Source: Escherichia phage vB_EcoM_PhAPEC2. Taken from it: a stretch of 64,000 nt of DNA. The stretch lies in the sequence record NC_024794.1, one strand, 5' to 3'. The notes beneath the pieces are model-generated. The model was not told where the DNA came from, made no database searches, and saw only the letters and a program-made list of their open reading frames with translations. The translations under genes were made by a program, and so were the position numbers. Of this stretch, positions 2,520 to 51,916 are shown one piece after another. The number at the start of each line of letters is the position of its first letter. Position 1 is the first letter of the stretch.

Positions 2520-3620
2520 TTACGCTGTGAAGATTTTATCCCACATCGCAACAACTGCATCTCGATTATACTTCTTCCATACTGCTTCAGCACGTTTAAC
2601 TCGAGCTTCGTATGTGTCAGTGAATTCTAATACAGCTTTTGTGTAAAGCGCAACTACTTCTTTCTTAGGAGTAGAGGAATCAATTTCTACACGCACAGTA
2701 TCTGGGTCGTATTCGAATGTCGCATGAGGATAATCCTTAAAAACTAACTGGATTACAGGGACACCTTTAGAGATGGCTTCAATAGAACTATTCTCTACCG
2801 TACCTGTGTCAGGACACGTATTAATAAGTGCTTTAGCTGTTTTAAGACGTTCCATGATTTCACTGTGTGGAGCATCAATAATAACAGGATATTTAGCTGG
2901 TGGTGCCCATTTGCTTGGACAATAACCAATACCATTTTCGCCTAGTGCTTTAATTGCTTCAAGAGCAACATCAGTACGACGCATTTTAGTGTCATAACGT
3001 TGTGCACTAATAATCAGATCAGTCGCTGGAAGAACTTCAGGTTTCTCATTCAAACAAATAACCGGATAATCTTCGGCTTCAAACAATGGATTTGCTCGCC
3101 AATAATCATAATCAATTTTGTCAGTAAGAGCTGAAGTCATATGACAATATTTACGTTCAAATTCACGGAAGGCTTTAGTAGGAGCATAACTCTTACCACC
3201 ATTCTTATGAATTTGAATAGTCTGGTCCCAAATTTGAACAATGCCACGAGATACCGGTTCAAATGGTGTTGCCATAAAATTCTTATGAACTTTAGAGAGA
3301 CCTGCGTCTTTAATTGCCTGAACGGTTAGTTTAGTCGGTTCCATAGTAACAACAAAATCGTATTCATGGATGCCGGCTAGTTCAACAATCTTACGAGCCA
3401 TAGTATAACTCATACCTAGACTGAATTTTGTCAGATGACCAACAGGATGGTGTGTAACTTTCCAATCACCAAACGTGTCATTATCAAAGCCGATATAATC
3501 AATATCAGCACCGATGGATACAAGATATTTCAACACATTTAAATGTACTGCTTCAAGACCACCTTGTACACGGTCAGGGTTAAATGGGACTGCACGAGAT
3601 GGGATAAACATAACTTTCAT
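2520..3620 (-). CDS. GT-B (GT4-like) glycosyltransferase; candidate hmC sugar (arabinosyl) transferase
   Basis: 366 aa; C-terminal EX7E-like motif TGTVENSSIEAISKGVPVI typical of GT4 retaining glycosyltransferases; third ORF from the rIIA end, matching the position of the RB69 ORF003c-type transferase as I recall it. Confidence 0.6.
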   Translation of the reverse strand: MKVMFIPSRAVPFNPDRVQGGLEAVHLNVLKYLVSIGADIDYIGFDNDTFGDWKVTHHPVGHLTKFSLGMSYTMARKIVELAGIHEYDFVVTMEPTKLTVQAIKDAGLSKVHKNFMATPFEPVSRGIVQIWDQTIQIHKNGGKSYAPTKAFREFERKYCHMTSALTDKIDYDYWRANPLFEAEDYPVICLNEKPEVLPATDLIISAQRYDTKMRRTDVALEAIKALGENGIGYCPSKWAPPAKYPVIIDAPHSEIMERLKTAKALINTCPDTGTVENSSIEAISKGVPVIQLVFKDYPHATFEYDPDTVRVEIDSSTPKKEVVALYTKAVLEFTDTYEARVKRAEAVWKKYNRDAVVAMWDKIFTA

Positions 3621-3665: not shown

Positions 3666-5480
3666 GGACATCCATTCTTTACGAAGTTCTGAATCATCAC
3701 CCAACAACATTTCAAAGAGTTCTTTCCAATTTTCAGGAAGTTTAACTACGTCGTACACAGGGTTCTGAATCATTTCACGATATTCTGACTTTTCAAGGGA
3801 GCCTAATCCCTTGATGTATCGAATACTATGCTTAGGCAGTGTATCTTTAACTTCTTCATACTCAGCTACAGTATAAAACCATTTTTGAGTTTTGCCAATT
3901 TGTGCAATAATTACAGGCGTTTTAACAAAGCGAATACGTCCTTGTTCAAACAATTCAGGCCAATTACTAAAGAAAGCAAGCAAAGCCGGATAGATACTTC
4001 CAAGACCGTCATGATCGGCATCGGTCATAATTGCAATATTACGATAGTTCGTATTCTCTGCCTTTTCACCAAGAATAAGACCTGTGATAGCACAGATATC
4101 AAAGAGCTCTTTGTTCTTCATCATATCGGCATATGACATACCCCAGCTATTCATCACCTTACCACGTAATGGGAATCCGCCATGTAGTTCACGGTCACGA
4201 ACATCAATGAGATAACCAATTGCCGAATCACCTTCTGTTAAGAACAATGTCGTATCTGCATCTTTACCACATTGGTTAGCTTTAATATGCTTATGAACCT
4301 TAGCTTTAGTTGCCTTTTTAGCTGCTTTAGTTTCTGCAGCCTTTTCTGCCGCCAATTTACGAGCTAATGCTGCTTCAACAATAGGCATAATCAAGGCTTC
4401 GTTTTTAAGAAGTGCCTGAGCAATTTTCTTAGCATCTAATTGGATATGATTACGAATATCACCATACGTTGACGTTAAACGTTCTTTAGTCTGAGAATCA
4501 AAACGCATGTTGCTCATGTCTCTAATAAACATCAACATTGTGAGGCATTCTTTAACACGAGCTTTAGTGACTTCAATACCCTTATATTTCTTTTTAATAC
4601 CCGGCAAAAGATGTTCGCAGATATCATCCATTACACATTCAACATGATGACCACCGTTTTTAGTATGGATGTTATTCACATAAGTTAAATGACGGAAGCC
4701 ATCTGGTGATGTTGTGAATGCTATAGAGACTTTATCATTTTCTTGAATGATGTTATCTTCACCAAATTGTTTAGCAAATCGTTTAAAATTACCATCAACC
4801 TTTTTACCATTAAATGTGAACTTGATATCAGGATAAACGACTGCTAATGTTTGAAGTCGGTCTAAAGTAATATCTAAATAAATTTGAGATAAATTATGCT
4901 CTTCAAATGAAGTGAAATCAGGAGTGAAGATTACTTTAGTGCCTTTACCTTTAGATTTCTTAGAAGACCATGATTTGTTTTCCATTCCATTTGAACAGTT
5001 AACAGTGATTTCATTTTCGCCATCTGACGTGATGCCTGTAAACAACGTAGAGAAGATATTAGTTAAACTACTCCCGACGCCATTCATACCACCAGTCTTG
5101 CGTTCAGAGTCATCACCAAAGTTACCACCAGCCTTTGGAATAGTCCAGGCTGCTACAGGCCCAGGAATTTGTTCACCTGTTTGGTCGGTAACTAAACCTT
5201 GAGGAATACCACGTCCGTTATCTTCCACCGAAACTTGATTATTTTTAATTTGCACATCAATTTTATTTGCAAACTTAAATGATGTACGAATAGCTTCATC
5301 AACCGAGTTGTCAATAATCTCATCGATTAATTTAACCAGACCAGGAACATATTCAACTTGTTGATATTTACCAAACAAAAAACGCTCATGTGCTTCTTTA
5401 GCCGAAGAACCAATATACATACCACTACGTTTCTTAATATGTTCTACATCTGACAATACCTTAATTTCATTTTTAATCAT
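3663..5480 (-). CDS. 39: DNA topoisomerase II large subunit (GyrB-like ATPase + Toprim), single uninterrupted ORF
   Basis: 605 aa; GHKL motif IDEIIDNSVDEA, Toprim LFLTEGDSAIGY; SD AGGAG before ATG; MotA-type middle promoter upstream. Confidence 0.9.
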   Translation of the reverse strand: MIKNEIKVLSDVEHIKKRSGMYIGSSAKEAHERFLFGKYQQVEYVPGLVKLIDEIIDNSVDEAIRTSFKFANKIDVQIKNNQVSVEDNGRGIPQGLVTDQTGEQIPGPVAAWTIPKAGGNFGDDSERKTGGMNGVGSSLTNIFSTLFTGITSDGENEITVNCSNGMENKSWSSKKSKGKGTKVIFTPDFTSFEEHNLSQIYLDITLDRLQTLAVVYPDIKFTFNGKKVDGNFKRFAKQFGEDNIIQENDKVSIAFTTSPDGFRHLTYVNNIHTKNGGHHVECVMDDICEHLLPGIKKKYKGIEVTKARVKECLTMLMFIRDMSNMRFDSQTKERLTSTYGDIRNHIQLDAKKIAQALLKNEALIMPIVEAALARKLAAEKAAETKAAKKATKAKVHKHIKANQCGKDADTTLFLTEGDSAIGYLIDVRDRELHGGFPLRGKVMNSWGMSYADMMKNKELFDICAITGLILGEKAENTNYRNIAIMTDADHDGLGSIYPALLAFFSNWPELFEQGRIRFVKTPVIIAQIGKTQKWFYTVAEYEEVKDTLPKHSIRYIKGLGSLEKSEYREMIQNPVYDVVKLPENWKELFEMLLGDDSELRKEWMS

Positions 5481-5531: not shown

Positions 5532-5546
5532 GGGCCGAAGCCCTTA
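5524..5546 (-). terminator. intrinsic terminator
   Basis: minus strand AAGGGC-UUCG-GCCCUU followed by UUUUU. Confidence 0.6.
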
Positions 5547-5969
5547 TTTAAATTTAATTTTCTGAAGTGCATCAATTGCAGCCAAACGCCCTTGTTCACT
5601 TTTAACTGTAATGACCACATCGCCTGATACGATCACCGAACCATCAACAAATTCTATAGAACCTTTTTTGAAATCGACAGCTGTATCTGGTTCTGGAACT
5701 TCTTCAAAGAATTTAAATTCTGCACCATAAAGCAGAATATCACCTTGCATACTATGAATAGTTCGGCCATAATCGCCTACGGCTTCTACAGCAATAATCG
5801 AAACGCCGTAACCAATCATCTCTTCCACAATAAAATCTTTAGACAATAAAGTAGTATGCAGATTAGTATTAAGACGTTTACCAGTCGTATTAAGAAGTCT
5901 CAAGAAATTATCTTCCTGTCCTTTGATAATACGATATTTCTTACCAACTTCAAAACCTTTAAAAGCCAT
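5544..5969 (-). CDS. hypothetical protein
   Basis: 141-aa ORF with SD AAGAAGGG; followed by UUCG-hairpin terminator. Confidence 0.55.
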   Translation of the reverse strand: MAFKGFEVGKKYRIIKGQEDNFLRLLNTTGKRLNTNLHTTLLSKDFIVEEMIGYGVSIIAVEAVGDYGRTIHSMQGDILLYGAEFKFFEEVPEPDTAVDFKKGSIEFVDGSVIVSGDVVITVKSEQGRLAAIDALQKIKFK

Positions 5970-5971
5970 AA

Positions 5972-6151
5972 TTAACCCTTCTTAAGTAAGTCGTAAAAAC
6001 CACCGTTCACATGTTTAGGAGCAGAAGCCCGACGAGTAGACAGACGATGACATTCAGGGCAAACATCGTTTTCTCGTTCAGAAATCCTTTTAATTTTTTC
6101 ATATTCATGACCACAATCTTCAGATTGACATTTATAGTCGTATAACGGCAT
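5972..6151 (-). CDS. small zinc-ribbon protein (CxxC...CxxC)
   Basis: 59-aa ORF not in track (below 60 aa); [18 protein letters not shown]...CPECH; start overlaps upstream stop (TAATG). Confidence 0.45.
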   Translation of the reverse strand: MPLYDYKCQSEDCGHEYEKIKRISERENDVCPECHRLSTRRASAPKHVNGGFYDLLKKG

Positions 6152-6564
6152 TATTGTTCCTTAAAGTGAGCTTTCAACATTTGATACAAAGACCATGCCT
6201 GGTCGTTATTTTCGATAGTAATCGTCATCACAGGAAATTCAGACAATTCGTCAAGTTCACCAGAATCTTGCTCTTCAGACGCTTGATACGGATTTCCAAC
6301 TTCGTCAAAGAACTCTGCTTCGTTCGTGGAGAGCCAGATAAAGTTTTCATCAAGGATATCACCGCCTGTTGCGTATCCAACCATGCCAGTAGATGTCACA
6401 ATTTTAGTAGGACGTCCAAGATGGTCAACATCTAATACTTTAAATGGTTCCATGCCAAGACGTCGTGCATAAATCCCATTATCAGTGTGGTTTTTAATAA
6501 ACTCTTCTTGGACACGTTTATCTTTAAATTGGTACCATGAGTTAACGCGGAATTTATTAGCCAT
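6151..6564 (-). CDS. hypothetical protein
   Basis: track ORF 6151..6582; likely start at internal Met (MANKF) overlapping upstream stop as TAATG with SD AAGGAAA. Confidence 0.5.
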
Positions 6565-6791
6565 TAGTAAGTTTCCTTCCAATAAGTTGTACCATTTTCA
6601 GTGATTTCACGGAAGATACCATAGATAGGCATTTCATCACCGAGTTTTTCGTAAACGTAAACCACTTCAGTGTAGCATAAAAATTCAGTCCAGTTTTTCT
6701 GTACAACAACTAAATCAGGATTAAACAGAACATCTTCAAACTCATCGATGTTTGAATCAGTAGTTACGTTTTTAATGATTTGACGTTTCAT
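6564..6791 (-). CDS. hypothetical protein
   Basis: 75 aa, strong SD AAGAGGAGAA, early promoter upstream. Confidence 0.5.
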
Positions 6792-6807: not shown

Positions 6808-6850
6808 TTTTGATAGGTCTATAGTATCATAGACCATAGTTGTTGTACAT
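6808..6850 (-). promoter_or_regulatory. early (sigma70-type) promoter
   Basis: minus strand TGTACA, 17 nt, TACTAT, then SD AAGAGGAGAA. Confidence 0.45.
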
Positions 6851-7374
6851 CATTTTAGCAAAATAAAATCAACTTGTTCTGCCAATGAACGTCTGAACAT
6901 TAATTGACAGCTTCCGAGGATGAAATCAGGTGCTTCATAGACCGCGATGTAGTATCCTTTAGCTTTCAAGAGTTCAACATCCACCTGGTCATCAAACCAT
7001 GCATAAACCGCGTCAACACTTTCAAATCCAAAATAGAACCCTTGAGCCCAATCTTCACTCAATTCAAATGTGTGCTCAATTCTATGGTATCTTAAGATAT
7101 TTTGTTCAAGGAGTTTGTCTTCATTTACTGTAGGACGATTAGGGACATTATAGTTGTCGCCGTGATGGTAGAAGTTACCTGAGATTATTCCATGTTTATC
7201 AAGGAACTCCCATGTTTCTTCAGAGTTGTCGGTGCCTGACCAACCGTATGGCGAACGAGGTTCTTTATTCCAAGAGGTTTCCCAAATTCTGACGGCTTTA
7301 CCGTCTTCGATAGCAATTCCTGGTAATGATTCACGTTGAGTACAAAAACTACGTTCTACGCGGTAAACTAACAT
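6850..7374 (-). CDS. hypothetical protein
   Basis: track ORF 6850..7431 reads through a promoter; SD GGAGAA precedes internal ATG (MLVYRVERSF). Confidence 0.6.
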   Translation of the reverse strand: MLVYRVERSFCTQRESLPGIAIEDGKAVRIWETSWNKEPRSPYGWSGTDNSEETWEFLDKHGIISGNFYHHGDNYNVPNRPTVNEDKLLEQNILRYHRIEHTFELSEDWAQGFYFGFESVDAVYAWFDDQVDVELLKAKGYYIAVYEAPDFILGSCQLMFRRSLAEQVDFILLK

Positions 7375-7394
7375 ATTATTCTCCTCTGGTTGAT

Positions 7395-7431
7395 ATGGAT
7401 ATAATACCAAAACCAGAGGAGAAGTAAACAA
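7395..7431 (-). promoter_or_regulatory. early promoter with anti-SD spacer
   Basis: minus strand GTTTAC, TTCTCCTCTGGTTTTGG, TATTAT; spacer is reverse complement of the downstream SD region. Confidence 0.55.
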
Positions 7432-7433
7432 CT

Positions 7434-7853
7434 TTATGCGAAAGCAGCTGGGCTATATTTTTTAATTTGGAATTCAGGAACTACCATGAACTGTCCAGCG
7501 AAAACGATGTTATAAAGCTTAACACCATCTTCTACCCAACGGTCGCTAATAAATCCAGCGATTTGCTTAGTTTTCCACGGTGTTCCATCAGTTGCCGCAG
7601 CAATAGTGAATTCATGGTCTTTTTCAACAGAAACTGATCTGCATAGTCCCCATTTGAACGCTTTTTCTTCCGGTTCAATGAACTGGCTTGAGACGTAGCC
7701 AATATTACCATTAGCATCACGAACTTTAACTTGGTTACGACCAAAAACCGGATCACTCACAGAAAGAACTTCAACCAACTTCCCGGCAACTTTAGAGCGA
7801 GAAGCAACAGATACATATACGTAATCACCTGTAGAGAGATTTACAATATTCAT
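7434..7853 (-). CDS. hypothetical protein, tandem paralog family member A
   Basis: 139 aa; shares C-terminal block GFISDRWVEDGVKLYNIVFAGQF with the two following ORFs. Confidence 0.6.
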   Translation of the reverse strand: MNIVNLSTGDYVYVSVASRSKVAGKLVEVLSVSDPVFGRNQVKVRDANGNIGYVSSQFIEPEEKAFKWGLCRSVSVEKDHEFTIAAATDGTPWKTKQIAGFISDRWVEDGVKLYNIVFAGQFMVVPEFQIKKYSPAAFA

Positions 7854-7862
7854 AATAATTCC

Positions 7863-8318
7863 TTAAGCTTTACGAGGAGACACATAGCGAGTGATTTCAG
7901 ATTCTTTAACAACTCGGAAGTCACCTAAGAATACGATATTATATAACTTTTCACCATCTTCAACCCATTGGTCACTAATGAAGCCACACATAGTATCAGT
8001 TTTGCTTGGATAACCGTATTCATCGATGAAGTCAAATTCTTTATCAGTCTGGAATTCAACACCTTTACACAAGGCCCATTTGAACTGTACATTAGGCTCA
8101 GTAGAAGCAAAAGCACCACTCACACGAGTTTCCAGGAATTTAGGACTTACGTAAGCGTACTGAGTATCCTGACGTCCAAAACTAGGAATGATTCGAACTT
8201 TAACTTCTTTAATACGTCCCGTGCCATTTGTGCGAAGTCCGACAACTTCAACCAGACGACCTGCGGCTTTAGAACGGGATGCAGTTGATACACGCTTAAT
8301 TTCACCAATAGTAATCAT
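7863..8318 (-). CDS. hypothetical protein, tandem paralog family member B
   Basis: track ORF 7863..8381; real start likely MITIGEIKRV; conserved VSTASRSKAAGRLVEV and GFISDQWVEDGEKLYNIVFLGDF blocks. Confidence 0.6.
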   Translation of the reverse strand: MITIGEIKRVSTASRSKAAGRLVEVVGLRTNGTGRIKEVKVRIIPSFGRQDTQYAYVSPKFLETRVSGAFASTEPNVQFKWALCKGVEFQTDKEFDFIDEYGYPSKTDTMCGFISDQWVEDGEKLYNIVFLGDFRVVKESEITRYVSPRKA

Positions 8319-8345
8319 AATTTCTCTCTCTTTGTTTAAATTGAA

Positions 8346-8380
8346 TTCACTATACTCCATCCATCCTTGGATGTACAACA
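8346..8380 (-). promoter_or_regulatory. early promoter (cassette variant)
   Basis: minus strand TTGTAC, ATCCAAGGATGGATGGAG, TATAGT. Confidence 0.45.
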
Positions 8381-8875
8381 TTAATTAAGGATATTAACCA
8401 CAGCACTACGCGGAACTACACTAAAATCACCTGCATGAACTACGTTCAGAAGTTCAACACCGTCTTCAATCCACTGATCAGTTACCCATCCACTCACTGG
8501 ACCTGCAAACGGACGATGAATTGAAACAGCTTTACACAACAAATCAGTAGGCTCAATAGGCTTAATCAGAGTACCGTACATACAAGCGATATCCATATCA
8601 ATACAGATGTCTTTAACGGGTTCTACTTCTTCAATCAACAGTTCAAAGTCGGTGCTTGGAAGGGCGGTAGTAGAAATTGTACCATATGAATTTTTAATTT
8701 CTAAGAATAACCAAGGACCTTCAGCTTGTTTGATGAAGTTAACAATAGTGAAACTATTACCTTGAGTGGCACCTAAAATTTCACAAAACTTTTCATAAGC
8801 TCGCACTGAAGCACCGTACCAGTTGATTTGTTTTTCGTCTTTCAGGATGTAAGTAGCCGTAGTATTGATATTCAT
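8381..8875 (-). CDS. hypothetical protein, tandem paralog family member C (divergent N-terminus)
   Basis: track ORF 8381..8917; start moved to MNINTTATY because the upstream Met lies inside the promoter; C-terminal GWVTDQWIEDGVELLNVVHAGDF. Confidence 0.55.
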   Translation of the reverse strand: MNINTTATYILKDEKQINWYGASVRAYEKFCEILGATQGNSFTIVNFIKQAEGPWLFLEIKNSYGTISTTALPSTDFELLIEEVEPVKDICIDMDIACMYGTLIKPIEPTDLLCKAVSIHRPFAGPVSGWVTDQWIEDGVELLNVVHAGDFSVVPRSAVVNILN

Positions 8876-8899
8876 AATGGTTTCCCGTTTGGTTAAGAT

Positions 8900-8936
8900 A
8901 GAAAGATTATACTCCAACCATCCTTGGTTGTAAACC
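8900..8936 (-). promoter_or_regulatory. early promoter (duplicated cassette copy 1)
   Basis: minus strand GTTTAC, AACCAAGGATGGTTGGAG, TATAAT. Confidence 0.55.
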
Positions 8937-8940
8937 GGTT

Positions 8941-9618
8941 TTATCGCTGTTTTACACTTAACGGGTCAGGATTCTCAGGGACATCTTCAAGGCCAAGCGC
9001 ATAACGCTGAGCATATTTTAACATCAAAATATCTTTAGCACAATCATGAATACTATCATGAGCAACGAATCCTTTTAGCGTACCCATCGGTAATGGACAC
9101 ATACTTAATCCTCGTGTCAACGAGTAAGCTTCGATTGCCGTACGAATATCGCGTTGAGCCCAGAATTTAACCGGTTCTAATTTATCAGTATCAATATCTG
9201 GTTCAAGAACACCTTCATCACGATAGAGGTCACGAATCAAATCAACCAATATCGGGAAGTCAAAGCTCATACCACGGCACCACATCTGTGATTTCCATTG
9301 GTCAACTTTATTATCTCGGCAATAGTCTAAAAAGATTTTAATGCCTTCAAGCGTAGTGACATCATCTTCAGACGGAGCCAGGTTTTTACGCGCTTCAGCC
9401 GATTGTTCTTTCCACCATTTCATAGTGGATTTAGCGAAAACTCTCTTCCCTTTCTGAGAAGCTAAATTAAATTTAATTCGCTTACCTCGTTGAACAAGTT
9501 CTTCAAATGATTCAACAACTTCAGGGTCGGAATTATATGCAATAACCGCAAGGTCAATAACAGCCGCTTTTGATGTATTGCCGAATGTTTCAAAATCTAT
9601 AATAACGTCAGTGCTCAT
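8941..9618 (-). CDS. dexA: exonuclease A (DEDDh 3'-5' exonuclease)
   Basis: 225 aa; IIDFETFG exo motif; position upstream of dda as in T4. Confidence 0.8.
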   Translation of the reverse strand: MSTDVIIDFETFGNTSKAAVIDLAVIAYNSDPEVVESFEELVQRGKRIKFNLASQKGKRVFAKSTMKWWKEQSAEARKNLAPSEDDVTTLEGIKIFLDYCRDNKVDQWKSQMWCRGMSFDFPILVDLIRDLYRDEGVLEPDIDTDKLEPVKFWAQRDIRTAIEAYSLTRGLSMCPLPMGTLKGFVAHDSIHDCAKDILMLKYAQRYALGLEDVPENPDPLSVKQR

Positions 9619-9627
9619 AATTTTCTC

Positions 9628-10941
9628 TCAAATAAAATGGACGTCAAAACGACCACGAGTCGTGCCGACATACAATAACTGTTTAGCTAATTCTGAATCT
9701 GCATAATGGATACACGGTGTATAAACAAAGGCCGTGTCAACAGACATACCCTGGGCCTTATGGAAGGTTGATACTGGTAGTGCCTTCACCTTAGTGAACA
9801 TGCGTTTAGCATCCCAGAATTCGCTCCATGGAGCTTTACCACCTTTATTCCAAAATTTGTATGTTTCTGCGGCCTTAGCCAAAAACAAATTGAATTTATA
9901 AAGCTCTTCTTCAGAAGAAATAACCTTTATATCTTCTCGGATATATTCTTCATCATCCCCATATGTTTCTACTGTAAGATTCCAGTATCGTATCATATAT
10001 TCGCCTGAAACACCACGTGCTTTAACGAATGTAGACGTTTCTACAGCATCTCGAATACGAACGAATTGCCCGTTATTGAAAAGCATTTCGGTCATATTTT
10101 TACCATCTAGCTTATATGTCTTAGTAAATGGCTCTTGTAGAACAATGACTTCGTCTTTAATAAATGGTTTTTCTGTTTCAAGAAGTTTTCGGCGAATAAT
10201 TGAATTTAACTTGTCCACCGACTTATTTGTGAATGCCATCATTCGATTTTCGAAAAGGTCTTCAGGAGTTTTAACGACGTTAAAATAGTTCATCATATAC
10301 GATTTAAGGTCTGTATATCCATGAACACCGTGCCCATCAACTACTTTATCGTAAATCCATTTGCCATTACGAATATCAGTCGCAACATCAATAATTGGTG
10401 CATTGCTACGTTTAACTTCTGTAAGGTTGCATTGCACGAAGTCTTTGTGAGTGAAGAAAGGACTTAGATACGCAGTTGATTCGCCTGGGTCTACCGGACG
10501 AATCTGGCATCGGTCGCCGATTCCAATTACTGTACACCATTTAGGGATACTAGCTAACATTATTTTAAACAGAGAACGGTCGCACATTGATGCTTCATCA
10601 AATAACAGTACACGACACAAGGCTAAGTCGGGAACCTTTTTCTGTTCAAACAATACGTTTTCTTCGTATGTAGTTGGGTTGATTTTAAGAATGCTATGAA
10701 TAGTCGATGCTTCTTGACCCGCAAGTTTGCTTAGAACCTTTTTAGCAGCATGTGTAGGGGCTGCTAAAATAATACCTGATTCTCCAGAAGAAATAAGGGC
10801 TTCAACGATGAATCTAGTAAGGGTTGTTTTACCTGTACCAGCGGGCCCATTAATAGTTACGTGATGTTTCTTTTCTTTAATAGCTTTCATAACAACGTTG
10901 AAGGCGTTTTTCTGACCTTCAGTCAAATCATCAAATGTCAT
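9628..10941 (-). CDS. dda: Dda DNA helicase (SF1)
   Basis: 437 aa; Walker A GPAGTGKTT; T4 Dda is 439 aa. Confidence 0.9.
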   Translation of the reverse strand: MTFDDLTEGQKNAFNVVMKAIKEKKHHVTINGPAGTGKTTLTRFIVEALISSGESGIILAAPTHAAKKVLSKLAGQEASTIHSILKINPTTYEENVLFEQKKVPDLALCRVLLFDEASMCDRSLFKIMLASIPKWCTVIGIGDRCQIRPVDPGESTAYLSPFFTHKDFVQCNLTEVKRSNAPIIDVATDIRNGKWIYDKVVDGHGVHGYTDLKSYMMNYFNVVKTPEDLFENRMMAFTNKSVDKLNSIIRRKLLETEKPFIKDEVIVLQEPFTKTYKLDGKNMTEMLFNNGQFVRIRDAVETSTFVKARGVSGEYMIRYWNLTVETYGDDEEYIREDIKVISSEEELYKFNLFLAKAAETYKFWNKGGKAPWSEFWDAKRMFTKVKALPVSTFHKAQGMSVDTAFVYTPCIHYADSELAKQLLYVGTTRGRFDVHFI

Positions 10942-48585: not shown

Positions 48586-48890
48586 TATAATGTTCTCTCA
48601 AATTTGTGGAAGCATTTACGGCATTTCAATTTCAAGTTATCAGTGGTCCAGTTAACCAGTTGGACTTGGATAGTTCCACATTCCGGGCATGGATGTTTTG
48701 CTGCCGATTTGGCAGCATTTTCACGTCGTTCAACCATTTTCATTATTTCGTTCCATGCCGGAGGAACGAACTCTTCTTCACCGTGGATTTTATCTCGCTG
48801 AACAAATTCAATCTTTGAACTATCGTCAATAAACTTAACCAAGCCATGACTAGTGCTCATATCAATATCCTCTAAAAGACGTAGTTTCAT
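48585..48890 (-). CDS. zinc-ribbon protein
   Basis: 101 aa; CPECG...CRKC. Confidence 0.55.
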   Translation of the reverse strand: MKLRLLEDIDMSTSHGLVKFIDDSSKIEFVQRDKIHGEEEFVPPAWNEIMKMVERRENAAKSAAKHPCPECGTIQVQLVNWTTDNLKLKCRKCFHKFERTL

Positions 48891-49840
48891 TATAACACCT
48901 CAATGGCATTTCGTAAACCGTCCGCTTTCGCATTCAGAGCTTTTAACGATTTAGTTTGTTCTTTAATCTGGGCTTCGACTTCTTTCAGACGAGATTTGAG
49001 GTACTCACGTTCTTCGCTCAAGTTGTCAACTTTTTCTACTTTAGGTTCTTTAATAGTCTTAAGTTTATACTCGTTAGGGTTCTTCAGCTTAATTCGGGTA
49101 CGAGAACTGAATAACATTGAACCGTTATCTTCGGATTCGTCGAACGTTTCAACAACATCCATAGTCTCTAACAATGTAATAAGTTTATAAGACAACGAAC
49201 GAATAGTTTTGTTGTGCTTATTAATTTCTTCGGCTTTCATAGTACCGAGATTACGTGAGTAGTAATAAGGAACCTGGATATCAATTGACAATGATGCGTT
49301 ACCATTACCAGTTGGTTTGAATACTGCAGTAACCCAATCTTTAACATGAACTTTATTTGTACGGCCATCACCGCCAGTGAATAATTTACGAGAATGTTTA
49401 AAAAGCATATTCACTTGTTTATTGAATTCACAAGCAAATTTATCAGCAAATTTAGTTTCAGGAATGGTAGATAACCAATCAGCCAAATGAGTCTTTTTAA
49501 CATCATTAACAATAGTGAATTCAACCAAATCGGTTTTAGATGTCACAGATTTAATAAAGCTCGGTTTCATAAAGTTTTTAATGTTATCGCGAGCTACAGT
49601 AGAAGATAATAAACGAGAACGTTTGAACCATTGAAGCAGCGTCCCTAGTGAATGAGAATATGCATTTTGAGTATCTTTACAGATATGATTTTCTTGGCCT
49701 GTGTATGTACCAAAATCGCGAAGAATACCACTTACTACATCTCGGTGTGGAACATCAAATCCTAGTGCACCAACAGCGCGCTGGGCACGAACGTTAGCGA
49801 TAAGACCGGCAAAGTATTCAATGTAATGTGAACGTGTCAT
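48890..49840 (-). CDS. hypothetical protein with C-terminal coiled coil
   Basis: 316 aa; own copy of the duplicated promoter cassette upstream. Confidence 0.6.
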   Translation of the reverse strand: MTRSHYIEYFAGLIANVRAQRAVGALGFDVPHRDVVSGILRDFGTYTGQENHICKDTQNAYSHSLGTLLQWFKRSRLLSSTVARDNIKNFMKPSFIKSVTSKTDLVEFTIVNDVKKTHLADWLSTIPETKFADKFACEFNKQVNMLFKHSRKLFTGGDGRTNKVHVKDWVTAVFKPTGNGNASLSIDIQVPYYYSRNLGTMKAEEINKHNKTIRSLSYKLITLLETMDVVETFDESEDNGSMLFSSRTRIKLKNPNEYKLKTIKEPKVEKVDNLSEEREYLKSRLKEVEAQIKEQTKSLKALNAKADGLRNAIEVL

Positions 49841-49864: not shown

Positions 49865-49899
49865 ATTCATTATACTCCAACCATCCTTGGTTGTAAACC
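49865..49899 (-). promoter_or_regulatory. early promoter (duplicated cassette copy 2)
   Basis: minus strand GTTTAC, AACCAAGGATGGTTGGAG, TATAAT; identical to 8900..8936 copy. Confidence 0.55.
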
Positions 49900-49902
49900 G
49901 TT

Positions 49903-50862
49903 TTATGATTTTAATGCATTCATTGCGTTAAAAAGTTTAGAATACTGCAACTGGAGATTCGTTACAACACTTTGAGCATCACGAAGCTTAGCTTGTGCTT
50001 TGTCAAGTTCAACGGACAGTTGGTCTACAGTAGCCTTGATTTGGTTGTAATGATAATCTTCGGCCGGAAGAAGGTCATTAGAAACATTTAGTTTTACTGC
50101 CGACAGTTTGCACACATTTGGCAAACATTTAAACATATCGGGTTGTGCCGGAGAATATGCGCTTAGAACCTCTGCATTACCGACTGGTGTTGCTGTGATA
50201 TTGCCTTCGAACGTTGCATTTTCCTTTTTAAGATTTTGATAGTATTCAGAGTCTTTGTGCCACCATGGCGCAGGAACCTTTTTACCAATAGATACACGAG
50301 CCTGGATAGCGATATGGCCCTTATTCTTGATAATGTCGATAATATTAAGCTCACGAGAATAAATCGCTTTAATCTGGTGGATATTATCACCTAAAACTTC
50401 CAACGCTTGGTGGAATACACGAGCAACGTTATCATTCTTAGGTTTATACGTGAGAGTGAACTCGTTCTCACTGATAACCATGATTTCCAACTTATCGTAA
50501 GTATATTTCAAATGTTTCATGTTAATTGCTTGAGGACGAATACGAGAAGCAATGGCCATCAAATTGTTAAGGTTATTTCTGAACTGTTTAGCAAAATATT
50601 GTCCATAACCGCCAATACAAAAATTACGAAGTTTCTGTTTGGCTAATAAACGGCTGAACTCACCATTTTTAATGAACTCTTTAACGGGTGTGTTAGTAAC
50701 GCATTCAAATTGAGTAAACTTACGAGAAGTAATCCCGTAATATGAACAGATTTCCTCAATCTCTTCAGGAGTCTTTACAGGCATACGGATAGGATTAGGT
50801 CCTGTGGTATATGCGTTCGAGGTAAATTCTTTGATAAGTTCTCTACGTGTAATAGAAGCCAT
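49903..50862 (-). CDS. hypothetical protein with C-terminal coiled coil
   Basis: 319 aa; own copy of the duplicated promoter cassette. Confidence 0.6.
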   Translation of the reverse strand: MASITRRELIKEFTSNAYTTGPNPIRMPVKTPEEIEEICSYYGITSRKFTQFECVTNTPVKEFIKNGEFSRLLAKQKLRNFCIGGYGQYFAKQFRNNLNNLMAIASRIRPQAINMKHLKYTYDKLEIMVISENEFTLTYKPKNDNVARVFHQALEVLGDNIHQIKAIYSRELNIIDIIKNKGHIAIQARVSIGKKVPAPWWHKDSEYYQNLKKENATFEGNITATPVGNAEVLSAYSPAQPDMFKCLPNVCKLSAVKLNVSNDLLPAEDYHYNQIKATVDQLSVELDKAQAKLRDAQSVVTNLQLQYSKLFNAMNALKS

Positions 50863-50884: not shown

Positions 50885-50919
50885 ATTTATTATACTCCAA
50901 CCATCCTTGGTTGTACATC
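50885..50919 (-). promoter_or_regulatory. early promoter (duplicated cassette copy 3)
   Basis: minus strand TGTACA, ACCAAGGATGGTTGGAG, TATAAT. Confidence 0.55.
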
Positions 50920-51916
50920 ATTCCTTAAGAAGTTTTACTACTTGAATAAGATTAGCTCGTTCTGTTTTATTTTTACCGTTTAAGCCTGCTAATCGTGAGA
51001 TCTCATCGTCAGTCTGTTGAATAGTTACATTAAGTTCGTTAATCAAAGCTTCAAAGTATTTGATTTGCTCAGCATGTTTTGATTCAAATTTCTGAACCGG
51101 AATAACGTCTTGGTTTAGTTCATCAATAAGGTCTTTAAGAGCATCTTCTTGGTTGATATCATATTCAACTTCTTTTATTTCTTCAACGAGCTCGTCTTTA
51201 TATCTAACGTCTTTTAGTCCTGGAGCTGGTCCTGAAATCTCTTCTTTAAGAGTACAAACATACCCAATACGGTATCCAATACCCAGGAACGGCTTGATAT
51301 CAACTTCGTCGATAAATCCACAATGTTTAAGACCAGAGCCGATTAGGTCAAAATATCCTTGACGTCGTCCTTCAAACGTTACACGAACTACTAAGACGGT
51401 TTTACCTGCAACCTTTTGAAGCTCACATTTATAAAAGTCAGTTGAACCTGAATAACGTGGATGAGTTTTAAAGTTCATCTGACGATCTAGGCCCATTTGT
51501 AAACGTGCTGTTACGGCCATAAAACGTGTTTGGTTCTCGTTAAGATGAGCAACAATCCATTTCAAAGGCATTTTACCCTGTTCACGTCCGAACAAATCAG
51601 TACGTCCTAGATTACGCAGGATGTTGTTAGAGTTAATCATCGACAGAACGTTAAGTTTATTCAGCGCGCTGAAGATTCCATCAGCCATTGATTTTCCATA
51701 ACCTTTACACGCTTTAATAAGTGCTCGCGGCAGATTAGTATAGATTTCAGACGGCATATGAAAATCAAATTTTCTAACCAATAATTGATGAACTTGGATA
51801 GCAATTTGCTCATAATTAAGTGCTCTGCGATCGTTATGGTCTTTAAACCACACTTTAATCTGTGAAGCACATAAACCGTTAATTTCATGTTTTATCGCAT
51901 CAGATGTAATGCTCAT
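50918..51916 (-). CDS. hypothetical protein with C-terminal coiled coil
   Basis: 332 aa; degenerate copy of the promoter cassette upstream. Confidence 0.6.
   Translation of the reverse strand: MSITSDAIKHEINGLCASQIKVWFKDHNDRRALNYEQIAIQVHQLLVRKFDFHMPSEIYTNLPRALIKACKGYGKSMADGIFSALNKLNVLSMINSNNILRNLGRTDLFGREQGKMPLKWIVAHLNENQTRFMAVTARLQMGLDRQMNFKTHPRYSGSTDFYKCELQKVAGKTVLVVRVTFEGRRQGYFDLIGSGLKHCGFIDEVDIKPFLGIGYRIGYVCTLKEEISGPAPGLKDVRYKDELVEEIKEVEYDINQEDALKDLIDELNQDVIPVQKFESKHAEQIKYFEALINELNVTIQQTDDEISRLAGLNGKNKTERANLIQVVKLLKE

What the first reader, a model, noticed from the sequence alone, without database searches (positions are those of the whole stretch)
7434..8917. Three tandem paralogs with a shared C-terminal domain
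Three adjacent genes of 139, 151 and 164 aa share the block GF(I/V)(S/T)D(R/Q)W(V/I)EDG..L.N(I/V)VF.G.F. Two also share VS(V/T)ASRSK(V/A)AG(K/R)LVEV, while the third has a different N-terminal half, and two carry their own promoter-cassette copy. Tandem diversifying families in phage early regions are often host-takeover or anti-defence factors.
Basis: seen in the sequence. Interest (0 to 1): 0.5.

Follow-up and report, generated by a model that had tools for sequence, protein, structure and literature searches.

The report
MotB/MotB.1 early-gene cluster of RB69-like phage
The three neighbouring genes are real relatives of each other, but they are the already described MotB, MotB-like and MotB.1 early genes of an RB69-type T4-like phage, whose founding member binds DNA and disturbs the host's H-NS chromosome-packing protein, so the finding is correct but ordinary.

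Summary
Three adjacent minus-strand genes share a C-terminal block well above chance: g1 7434-7853 (139 aa), g2 7863-8318 (151 aa) and g3 8381-8875 (164 aa). All three pass the Pfam PF17613 'motB' cut-off.

The window is a Mosigvirus (RB69-like T4-type phage).
- g2 is the MotB orthologue.
- g1 is the second MotB copy (RB69p010).
- g3 is an intact MotB.1.

Patterson-West et al. 2021 already reported that MotB and MotB.1 share a C-terminal domain behind different N-terminal domains. They also reported that RB69 has two motB genes plus one motB.1. Kim et al. 2025 described the LSm-like N-terminal domain of MotB.1.

g3 and g2 each sit behind a copy of a 27-nt early-promoter cassette. g1 follows g2 by 9 nt.

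Within Mosigvirus, dN/dS is 0.1-0.2, so the genes are conserved rather than diversifying under positive selection.

By homology, g2 is a non-specific DNA binder that remodels H-NS-DNA complexes. This supports host takeover; nothing supports anti-defence.

Three by-products:
- The T4 and RB69 reference records carry frameshifts that truncate motB.1.
- In my models the shared domain looks SH3/Tudor-like rather than OB-like.
- A conserved, predicted-disordered linker motif recurs across the family.

Novelty: already known.

The parts
8381..8875 (-). g3, 164 aa: intact MotB.1 orthologue. It has an acidic LSm/SH3-like N-terminal domain (residues 1-85), a disordered linker (86-106) and the shared C-terminal domain (108-164).
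   Evidence: T4 MotB.1 is the best T4 match (37% identity, E 2.5e-26). phrog_2333 E 3e-82. PF17613 33.9 bits. AF2 model mean pLDDT 79.9. pI 4.5.
7863..8318 (-). g2, 151 aa: MotB orthologue. It has a basic KOW/SH3-like N-terminal domain carrying SRSKAAGR, a short linker and the shared C-terminal domain.
   Evidence: 47% identity to T4 MotB, E 5e-43. PF17613 E 2e-37. Same coordinates and annotation as RB69 motB, RB69p011. AF2 model mean pLDDT 83.3. N-terminal domain pI 10.6.
7434..7853 (-). g1, 139 aa: second, shorter MotB copy, orthologue of RB69p010. It starts 9 nt after the g2 stop and has no promoter of its own, so it is presumably co-transcribed with g2.
   Evidence: 43% identity to g2 (E 9e-31) and 37% to T4 MotB (E 2e-24). 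PF17613 E 5e-21. RB69p010 lies at identical coordinates. dN/dS 0.11.
8384..8554 (-). Shared C-terminal domain of g3 (MotB.1 type, 57 aa): EPTDLLCKAVSIHRPF..GWVTDQWIEDGVELLNVVHAGDFSVVPRSAV.
   Evidence: 22 invariant residues across 35 homologues that average 38% column identity. Aligns with the MotB C-terminal domains.
7866..8084 (-). Shared C-terminal domain of g2 (MotB type, 73 aa). It has about 17 extra residues at a hairpin position compared with the MotB.1 type.
   Evidence: Alignment A5. Model strands 86-98, 104-120, 123-130, 133-138, a short helical turn, then 142-145.
7437..7658 (-). Shared C-terminal domain of g1 (MotB type, 74 aa).
   Evidence: tblastn and alignment. No non-synonymous change among six Mosigvirus genomes.
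8906..8934 (-). Early-promoter cassette upstream of g3 (TTTACA-17-TATAAT).
   Evidence: 11 of 12 consensus positions. 27-nt cassette found 4 times in the window, 0 expected.
8349..8377 (-). Early-promoter cassette upstream of g2 (TGTACA-17-TATAGT). It overlaps the g3 stop codon region.
8558..8602 (-). Conserved linker motif IDMDIACMYGTLIKP (g3 residues 92-106), predicted disordered.
   Evidence: pLDDT below 50 for residues 86-106. The motif recurs in many family members in different positions.

Best explanation
The three genes are the MotB-family cluster of an RB69-like (Mosigvirus) T4-type phage. It lies between dexA and the motB.2 orthologue in the early, non-essential region. g2 is MotB, g1 is a second MotB copy and g3 is a full-length MotB.1.

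Predicted, not shown: each protein is two small beta-barrels joined by a flexible linker. The C-terminal barrel is the common, strongly conserved module, built around G-[FW]-[IV]-[ST]-D-[QR]-W-[VI]-E-D-G...L.N[IV]V. The N-terminal barrel is either a KOW-like domain (g1, g2) or an LSm-like domain (g3).

Inferred from sequence only: g3 and g2 are each transcribed from their own sigma-70 early promoter. g1 rides on the g2 transcript.

Inferred from experiments on T4 MotB, which is 47% identical to g2: g2 coats host DNA without sequence specificity soon after infection. This changes how H-NS and StpA sit on the DNA, derepresses part of the H-NS regulon and modestly raises phage yield.

My own inference from charge: the basic KOW domain (pI 10.6) is the DNA-binding part of g2. 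The shared C-terminal barrel is acidic in g2 and g3 (pI about 4.6-4.7). I therefore think it is more likely a common protein-contact or self-association module than the DNA-binding surface.

g1 has a near-neutral N-terminal domain and g3 is acidic overall, so they probably differ in ligand. Their roles are not established.
For: Identity:
- Pfam PF17613 is above its cut-off for all three proteins, with matching PHROG families.
- Best matches to T4 MotB and MotB.1.
- The region is 97% identical to annotated Mosigvirus genomes.
- The RB69 annotation has motB and the motB-like gene at the same coordinates.

Architecture:
- AF2 models have mean pLDDT 80 and 83, each with a low-confidence linker.

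Conservation: dN/dS is 0.1-0.2 and lowest in the C-terminal domain. 22 residues are invariant in the MotB.1-type C-terminal domain.

Promoters.

Function of MotB: PMC6070864 and PMC7827196.

Charge.

The shared C-terminal domain, and two motB plus one motB.1 in RB69, are already stated in PMC7827196 section 3.2.
Against: - No experiment exists on these particular proteins.
- T4 MotB's own C-terminal domain is mildly basic (pI 8.6), so the 'acidic, not DNA-binding' argument does not hold across the family.
- The authors of the T4 work could not decide which domain binds DNA. They found no DNA-independent MotB/H-NS contact.
- T4 delta-motB.1 has no laboratory phenotype.
- A motB knock-down barely changes the T4 transcriptome.
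Confidence: 0.8

Rival explanations
1. The shared C-terminal domain is itself the nucleic-acid-binding module, an OB-fold of the cold-shock type. All three paralogs are then DNA or RNA binders that differ only in an accessory N-terminal domain.
For: HHpred-based proposal in PMC7827196 section 3.1. The T4 MotB C-terminal domain has pI 8.6. Being the one constant part of the family would fit a shared core activity.
Against: - In my AF2 models the domain has five strands with a short helical turn between strands 4 and 5. That is the SH3-like order, not the OB order, which has a helix between strands 3 and 4.
- The domain is acidic in g2 and g3 (pI 4.6-4.7), and whole g3 has pI 4.5.
Confidence: 0.25
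2. The cluster is an anti-defence arsenal. The paralogs are decoys or inhibitors of different host immune systems, kept in tandem and diversified by an arms race.
For: The genes sit in an early, non-essential, plastic region. Copy number varies from 1 to 3 among 770 phage records. N-terminal domains are swapped, and recombinant hybrids exist (P0155, P0223). H-NS silencing of foreign DNA can be viewed as a defence that MotB counteracts.
Against: - dN/dS is 0.1-0.2 with an almost invariant shared domain, unlike typical arms-race proteins.
- No match to any defence-related model.
- The papers read report no defence-related phenotype.
- The family is narrow but stable across T4-like phages.
Confidence: 0.1
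3. The similarity is chance or low-complexity resemblance, and the genes are unrelated.
For: The g3 match to g1 and g2 covers only 36-57 residues. The profile also picks up a short GYATEQWV-type motif in long repeat proteins.
Against: E values of 5e-10 and 2e-9 in pairwise BLASTP. g3 passes the curated Pfam cut-off. The profile alignment covers the whole domain, including the LCK..V.I and PF positions. The predicted strand order is the same in both models.
Confidence: 0.01

Closest known systems
T4 MotB (gene motB; Pfam PF17613; PHROG 1671)
   Same: g2 is 47% and g1 is 37% identical over the full length. They share the KOW-like N-terminal domain with the SRSKAAG[KR]LVEV motif, the same C-terminal domain and the same early-region neighbourhood between dexA and cef.
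   Different: There are two copies here instead of one. The linker is shorter: g1 lacks it almost entirely, whereas T4 has about 22 residues. The g1 N-terminal domain is neutral rather than basic. Gene order differs: in T4 motB.2 precedes motB.1 and motB, here it follows them.
T4 MotB.1 and the LSm-like family GoF / MotB.1 / Frd.2 (Kim et al. 2025, PMC12152347; PHROG 2333)
   Same: g3 is 37% identical to T4 MotB.1 (E 2.5e-26). It has the same beta-rich N-terminal domain and the same MotB.1-type C-terminal domain. The window also encodes GoF (6151-6564) and a 141-aa protein (5544-5969) whose PHROG matches link it to GoF and weakly to MotB.1.
   Different: g3 is full length at 164 aa and carries a 22-residue linker with the DMDIACMYGTLIKP motif, which T4 lacks. 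The T4 protein in the reference record, and in the 2025 experiments (13.8 kDa), is a 119-aa form cut inside the shared domain by a frameshift.
RB69 RB69p010, motB (p011), the 29-aa ORF (p012) and motB.1 (p013)
   Same: Direct orthologues. g1 and g2 have identical coordinates in RB69. Two motB plus one motB.1 in RB69 is stated in PMC7827196.
   Different: In the RB69 reference, two extra bases split motB.1 into a 132-aa ORF and a 29-aa ORF. In the window it is one intact 164-aa ORF.
Other phage antagonists of H-NS (T7 gp5.5, T4 Arn) and DNA-binding anti-silencers (Ler, VirB)
   Same: Same proposed end point as MotB: relief or alteration of H-NS-mediated silencing (discussion in PMC7827196).
   Different: gp5.5 and Arn bind H-NS directly. 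MotB was seen with H-NS only on DNA. There is no sequence or fold relationship.
PeSL promoter-terminator cassettes of T4-like phages (Arbiol 2010; Comeau 2014, PMC4122927)
   Same: Repeated, near-identical early-promoter cassettes (TTTACW-N17-TAYWAT) flank small early genes in plastic regions and are proposed to mediate gene shuffling. The window has four copies of one 27-nt cassette.
   Different: I found no accompanying terminator-like stem-loop upstream of the two cassettes at g3 and g2. Membership in the PeSL class is therefore not shown.

Membership tests
MotB family (Pfam PF17613) | Profile score above the curated gathering threshold (25 bits) | tested here: met
   g1 75.6 bits, g2 128.8 bits, g3 33.9 bits. 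g3 matches only the C-terminal part of the profile.
MotB family (Pfam PF17613) | Conserved C-terminal core G-[FWY]-[IV]-[ST]-D-[QR]-W-[VI]-E-x-G-x-x-L-x-N-x-V | tested here: met
   Present in all three proteins. F17, D38, W40, E42, G44, L47, N49, V51 and G54 (g2 CTD numbering) are invariant across 24 diverse C-terminal domains.
MotB proper (category 1 of Patterson-West 2021) | KOW-like N-terminal domain with the SRSK[AV]AG[KR] motif | tested here: met
MotB proper | Non-specific DNA binding, toxicity, co-purification with H-NS/StpA | not testable with these tools
   Known only for T4 MotB (PMC6070864). Inferred for g2 from 47% identity.
MotB.1 (category 2; PHROG 2333) | MotB.1-type N-terminal domain plus MotB.1-type C-terminal domain (DPTDLLCKAV..RRPF..GWVTDQWIEDGVELLNVVHAG) | tested here: met
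   g3: phrog_2333 E 3e-82 over the full length. T4 MotB.1 E 2.5e-26. Alignment A2.
LSm-like fold family GoF/MotB.1/Frd.2 | Five-stranded bent antiparallel sheet in the N-terminal domain, structurally close to Hfq and FeoA | tested here: inconclusive
OB-fold (cold-shock type) as proposed for the C-terminal domain | Beta1-3, helix, beta4-5 topology and structural matches to OB proteins | tested here: not met
Anti-defence proteins | Match to a known anti-defence family, or a defence-dependent phenotype | not tested
   PADLOC gave no hit, but it models defence systems, not anti-defence proteins. No phenotype data exist.
PeSL cassettes | Early promoter combined with a terminator-like stem-loop, repeated at module boundaries | tested here: inconclusive
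   The promoter part and the repetition are met. No terminator-like site was found next to the g2 or g3 cassettes.

The most novel reading that the evidence does not exclude
The shared C-terminal barrel is not an OB-fold DNA binder. It is an SH3/Tudor-like docking or self-association module that brings different nucleic-acid-binding heads (basic KOW for DNA, LSm-like possibly for RNA) to one common target. That target could be each other or the H-NS/StpA-DNA filament. A conserved disordered linker motif, [IV]-D-x-D-[IV]-A-[SC]-M-Y-x-T-[LP], would serve as a second short contact peptide. If so, MotB, the second MotB and MotB.1 act as one modular machine rather than as redundant copies. Published negative results on T4 MotB.1, obtained with the 119-aa form that lacks most of this module, would then need repeating.
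Probability: 0.2. Interest if true: 0.45.

Novelty: already known. Interest (0 to 1): 0.15.

Why it matters
As a discovery it adds little. The family, its shared C-terminal domain, the different N-terminal domains and the three-gene arrangement in RB69 are all in print.

The follow-up does have practical value in three places:
- The reference T4 and RB69 records misrepresent motB.1 as a truncated or split gene. This affects any work that starts from those records.
- It gives a testable alternative for what the conserved domain does, and for its fold (SH3/Tudor-like rather than OB).
- It shows that the family is confined to T4-like phages: 34 clusters among 1.84 billion representative proteins.

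Tried and rejected
- **Longer ORF versions** (172 aa for g2, 178 aa for g3). Rejected because their start codons lie inside the promoter cassettes. The shorter starts match RB69 and T4 and have ribosome-binding sites.
- **A fourth copy of the domain in the window.** None found. The neighbouring 174-aa 'motB.2' orthologue is unrelated in sequence.
- **Sequence search of solved structures** with g2, with the full-length profile and with the C-terminal profile. Nothing significant.
- **PADLOC.** No hits.
- **Profile search of 1.84 billion representatives.** It found only T4-like phage proteins of the same architecture. It also hit several long repeat proteins (P0243, P0245, P0247, P0248, P0250, P0251). 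I inspected P0243 and P0247: they match only a roughly 20-residue GYATEQWV-type repeat, and I treat this group as spurious.
- **Positive selection.** Not seen.
- **BFVD fold search.** It returned mainly family members among the significant hits and no informative outside relative.

Full report
**What the window is.** Bases 7000-9700 are 96-97.5% identical to many Escherichia phages of the genus Mosigvirus, such as JM10, NHEP10, O157 typing phage 3 and mobillu. The surrounding genes are T4-type early genes. On the minus strand, in transcription order, they are:
- dda (9628-10941)
- dexA (8941-9618)
- g3, g2 and g1
- a 174-aa orthologue of T4 motB.2 (6850-7374)
- cef (6564-6791)
- goF (6151-6564)
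- a 39.2-like zinc-ribbon gene
- a 141-aa gene (5544-5969)

The RB69 reference has its motB-like gene and motB at exactly the same coordinates, 7434-7853 and 7863-8318.

**Checking the observation.** The three genes are g1 7434-7853 (139 aa), g2 7863-8318 (151 aa) and g3 8381-8875 (164 aa).
- BLASTP: g1-g2 43% identity over 145 aa (E 9e-31); g1-g3 E 5e-10; g2-g3 E 2e-9. The last two are limited to the C-terminal block.
- All three exceed the curated cut-off of Pfam PF17613 'motB'.
- g1 and g2 fall in PHROG 1671 (MotB-like). g3 falls in PHROG 2333, with a secondary hit to 1671.
- Only these three loci in the 64-kb window carry the domain.

The promoter statement is also correct. A 27-nt cassette, TACANCCAAGGATGGNTGGAGTATART, lies before g3 and g2 and twice more at 49869-49895 and 50889-50915, with none expected by chance. 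It gives TTTACA-17-TATAAT and TGTACA-17-TATAGT promoters. g1 starts 9 nt after the g2 stop, behind a short GGA ribosome-binding site.

**Which genes they are.**
- g2 is the orthologue of T4 MotB (47% identity, E 5e-43).
- g1 is a second MotB copy (37% to T4 MotB, 43% to g2).
- g3 is the orthologue of T4 MotB.1 (37%, E 2.5e-26).

T4 has the order dexA, motB.2, motB.1, motB, cef. Here motB.2 comes after the MotB genes.

**What is already published.**
- Patterson-West et al. 2021 (PMC7827196, section 3.2) state that MotB and MotB.1 share a C-terminal domain behind different N-terminal domains. They also report further categories with other N-terminal domains, and that RB69 has two motB genes, one motB.1 and a 29-aa peptide.
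- Kim et al. 2025 (PMC12152347) place the MotB.1 N-terminal domain in an LSm-like family with GoF and Frd.2.

The finding is therefore a correct re-discovery.

**Anatomy of the proteins.** The AF2 models have mean pLDDT 79.9 (g3) and 83.3 (g2). Each shows two beta-rich domains joined by a low-confidence linker: g3 residues 86-106 and g2 residues 66-75. In both models the shared domain has five strands with a short helical turn between strands 4 and 5. The MotB type has about 17 extra residues at a hairpin position compared with the MotB.1 type.

**Conservation and spread.** The MotB.1-type C-terminal domain has 22 invariant residues in an alignment whose mean column identity is 38%.

Among six Mosigvirus genomes dN/dS is 0.11, 0.19 and 0.12 for g1, g2 and g3. 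The shared domain is lowest at 0.00, 0.14 and 0.08. Synonymous divergence differs two- to four-fold between the two halves of each gene, which suggests recombination near the domain boundary. Hybrid proteins exist that join a g2-like or T4-like N-terminal domain to a g1-like C-terminal domain (P0155, P0223).

In GenBank phages the domain occurs at 1495 places in 770 records, one to three per genome. A profile of the domain finds only 34 clusters with E up to 0.001 among 1.84 billion representative proteins. The more distant short hits I inspected are phage-sized proteins with a KOW-like head, often the linker motif, and the domain. The long hits I inspected match only a short repeat and are spurious.

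**How it most likely works.** The following is shown for T4 MotB only:
- It is an abundant early protein that is toxic when expressed alone.
- It binds modified and unmodified DNA without sequence preference.
- It up-regulates 75 host genes, about a third of them H-NS-repressed.
- It doubles burst size.

I infer the same for g2.

Charge gives an additional clue. The g2 KOW domain has pI 10.6 (net +7). The shared domain has pI 4.7 in g2 and 4.6 in g3, and whole g3 has pI 4.5. I therefore think the KOW head carries DNA binding and the shared barrel is a common contact or self-association module. This is weakened by the mildly basic C-terminal domain of T4 MotB (pI 8.6) and of g1 (pI 8.1).

The roles of g1 (neutral head) and g3 (acidic LSm-like head) are open. 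T4 delta-motB.1 shows no laboratory phenotype.

**By-products.**
- *Frameshifted reference records.* The T4 reference record (NC_000866 = AF158101) has one extra G in motB.1 (TGGATTGGAAGAT). This cuts the protein at 119 aa inside the shared motif, and the rest of the domain reads on in the +1 frame. Thirteen other records (eleven T4, plus RB55 and RB59) encode an intact 143-aa protein in one piece. The RB69 reference has two extra bases that split motB.1 into 132-aa and 29-aa ORFs. That explains the '29-aa peptide' category of the 2021 paper. The 2025 experiments used a 13.8-kDa MotB.1, which is the size of the 119-aa form.
- *Linker motif.* A predicted-disordered motif, D-x-D-[IV]-A-[SC]-M-Y-G-T-L-I-K-P in g3, recurs across the family. 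It sits between head and tail domains, between two heads in 250-aa forms, and at the N-terminus of 180-aa forms.
- *Promoter cassettes.* These resemble the promoter part of the PeSL cassettes described for T4-like phages. I found no adjoining terminator-like hairpin.

Noticed in passing
L001 (T4 NC_000866) locus 2700-2880, minus strand; L004 (RB69 NC_004928) locus 3877-4373; compare window 8381-8620: The T4 reference motB.1 has one extra G, and the RB69 reference motB.1 has two extra bases. These truncate or split the gene (119 aa; 132 + 29 aa). The window, four other Mosigvirus genomes and 13 other records (11 T4 plus RB55 and RB59) have an intact ORF. The reference annotations are probably record errors or stock-specific mutations. 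The published MotB.1 assays appear to have used the truncated form.
   Followed up: yes
window 8558-8602 (-), g3 residues 92-106: A conserved short motif, I-D-M-D-I-A-C-M-Y-G-T-L-I-K-P, lies in a predicted disordered linker. Variants recur at different positions in many family members, including distant KOW-headed forms. It may be a short contact peptide or only a recombination scar.
   Followed up: partly
window 49869-49895 and 50889-50915 (-); genes 48890-49840, 49903-50862, 50918-51916 (-): Two further exact copies of the same 27-nt promoter cassette lie in front of two of three tandem genes of 316-332 aa. These genes belong to PHROGs 1435, 2351 and 2257, all of unknown function. The similarity of the cassette upstream of 48890-49840 to the one upstream of g3 extends to about 50 nt.
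   Followed up: partly
window 5544-5969 (-) and 6151-6564 (-): The 141-aa protein and GoF both match PHROG 622. The 141-aa protein also weakly matches the N-terminal part of the MotB.1 PHROG (E 0.0014). The window therefore seems to hold at least three proteins with the LSm-like head described by Kim et al. 2025.
   Followed up: no
P0155 and P0223: Metagenomic MotB proteins that join a g2-like or T4-like N-terminal domain to a g1-like C-terminal domain. This is what unequal crossing-over between the tandem copies at the FKW.LC junction would produce.
   Followed up: partly
window 7401-7428 (-): A separate, non-cassette early-type promoter (TTTACT-16-TATTAT, with TG before the -10 element) lies directly after g1, in front of the motB.2 orthologue.
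   Followed up: no
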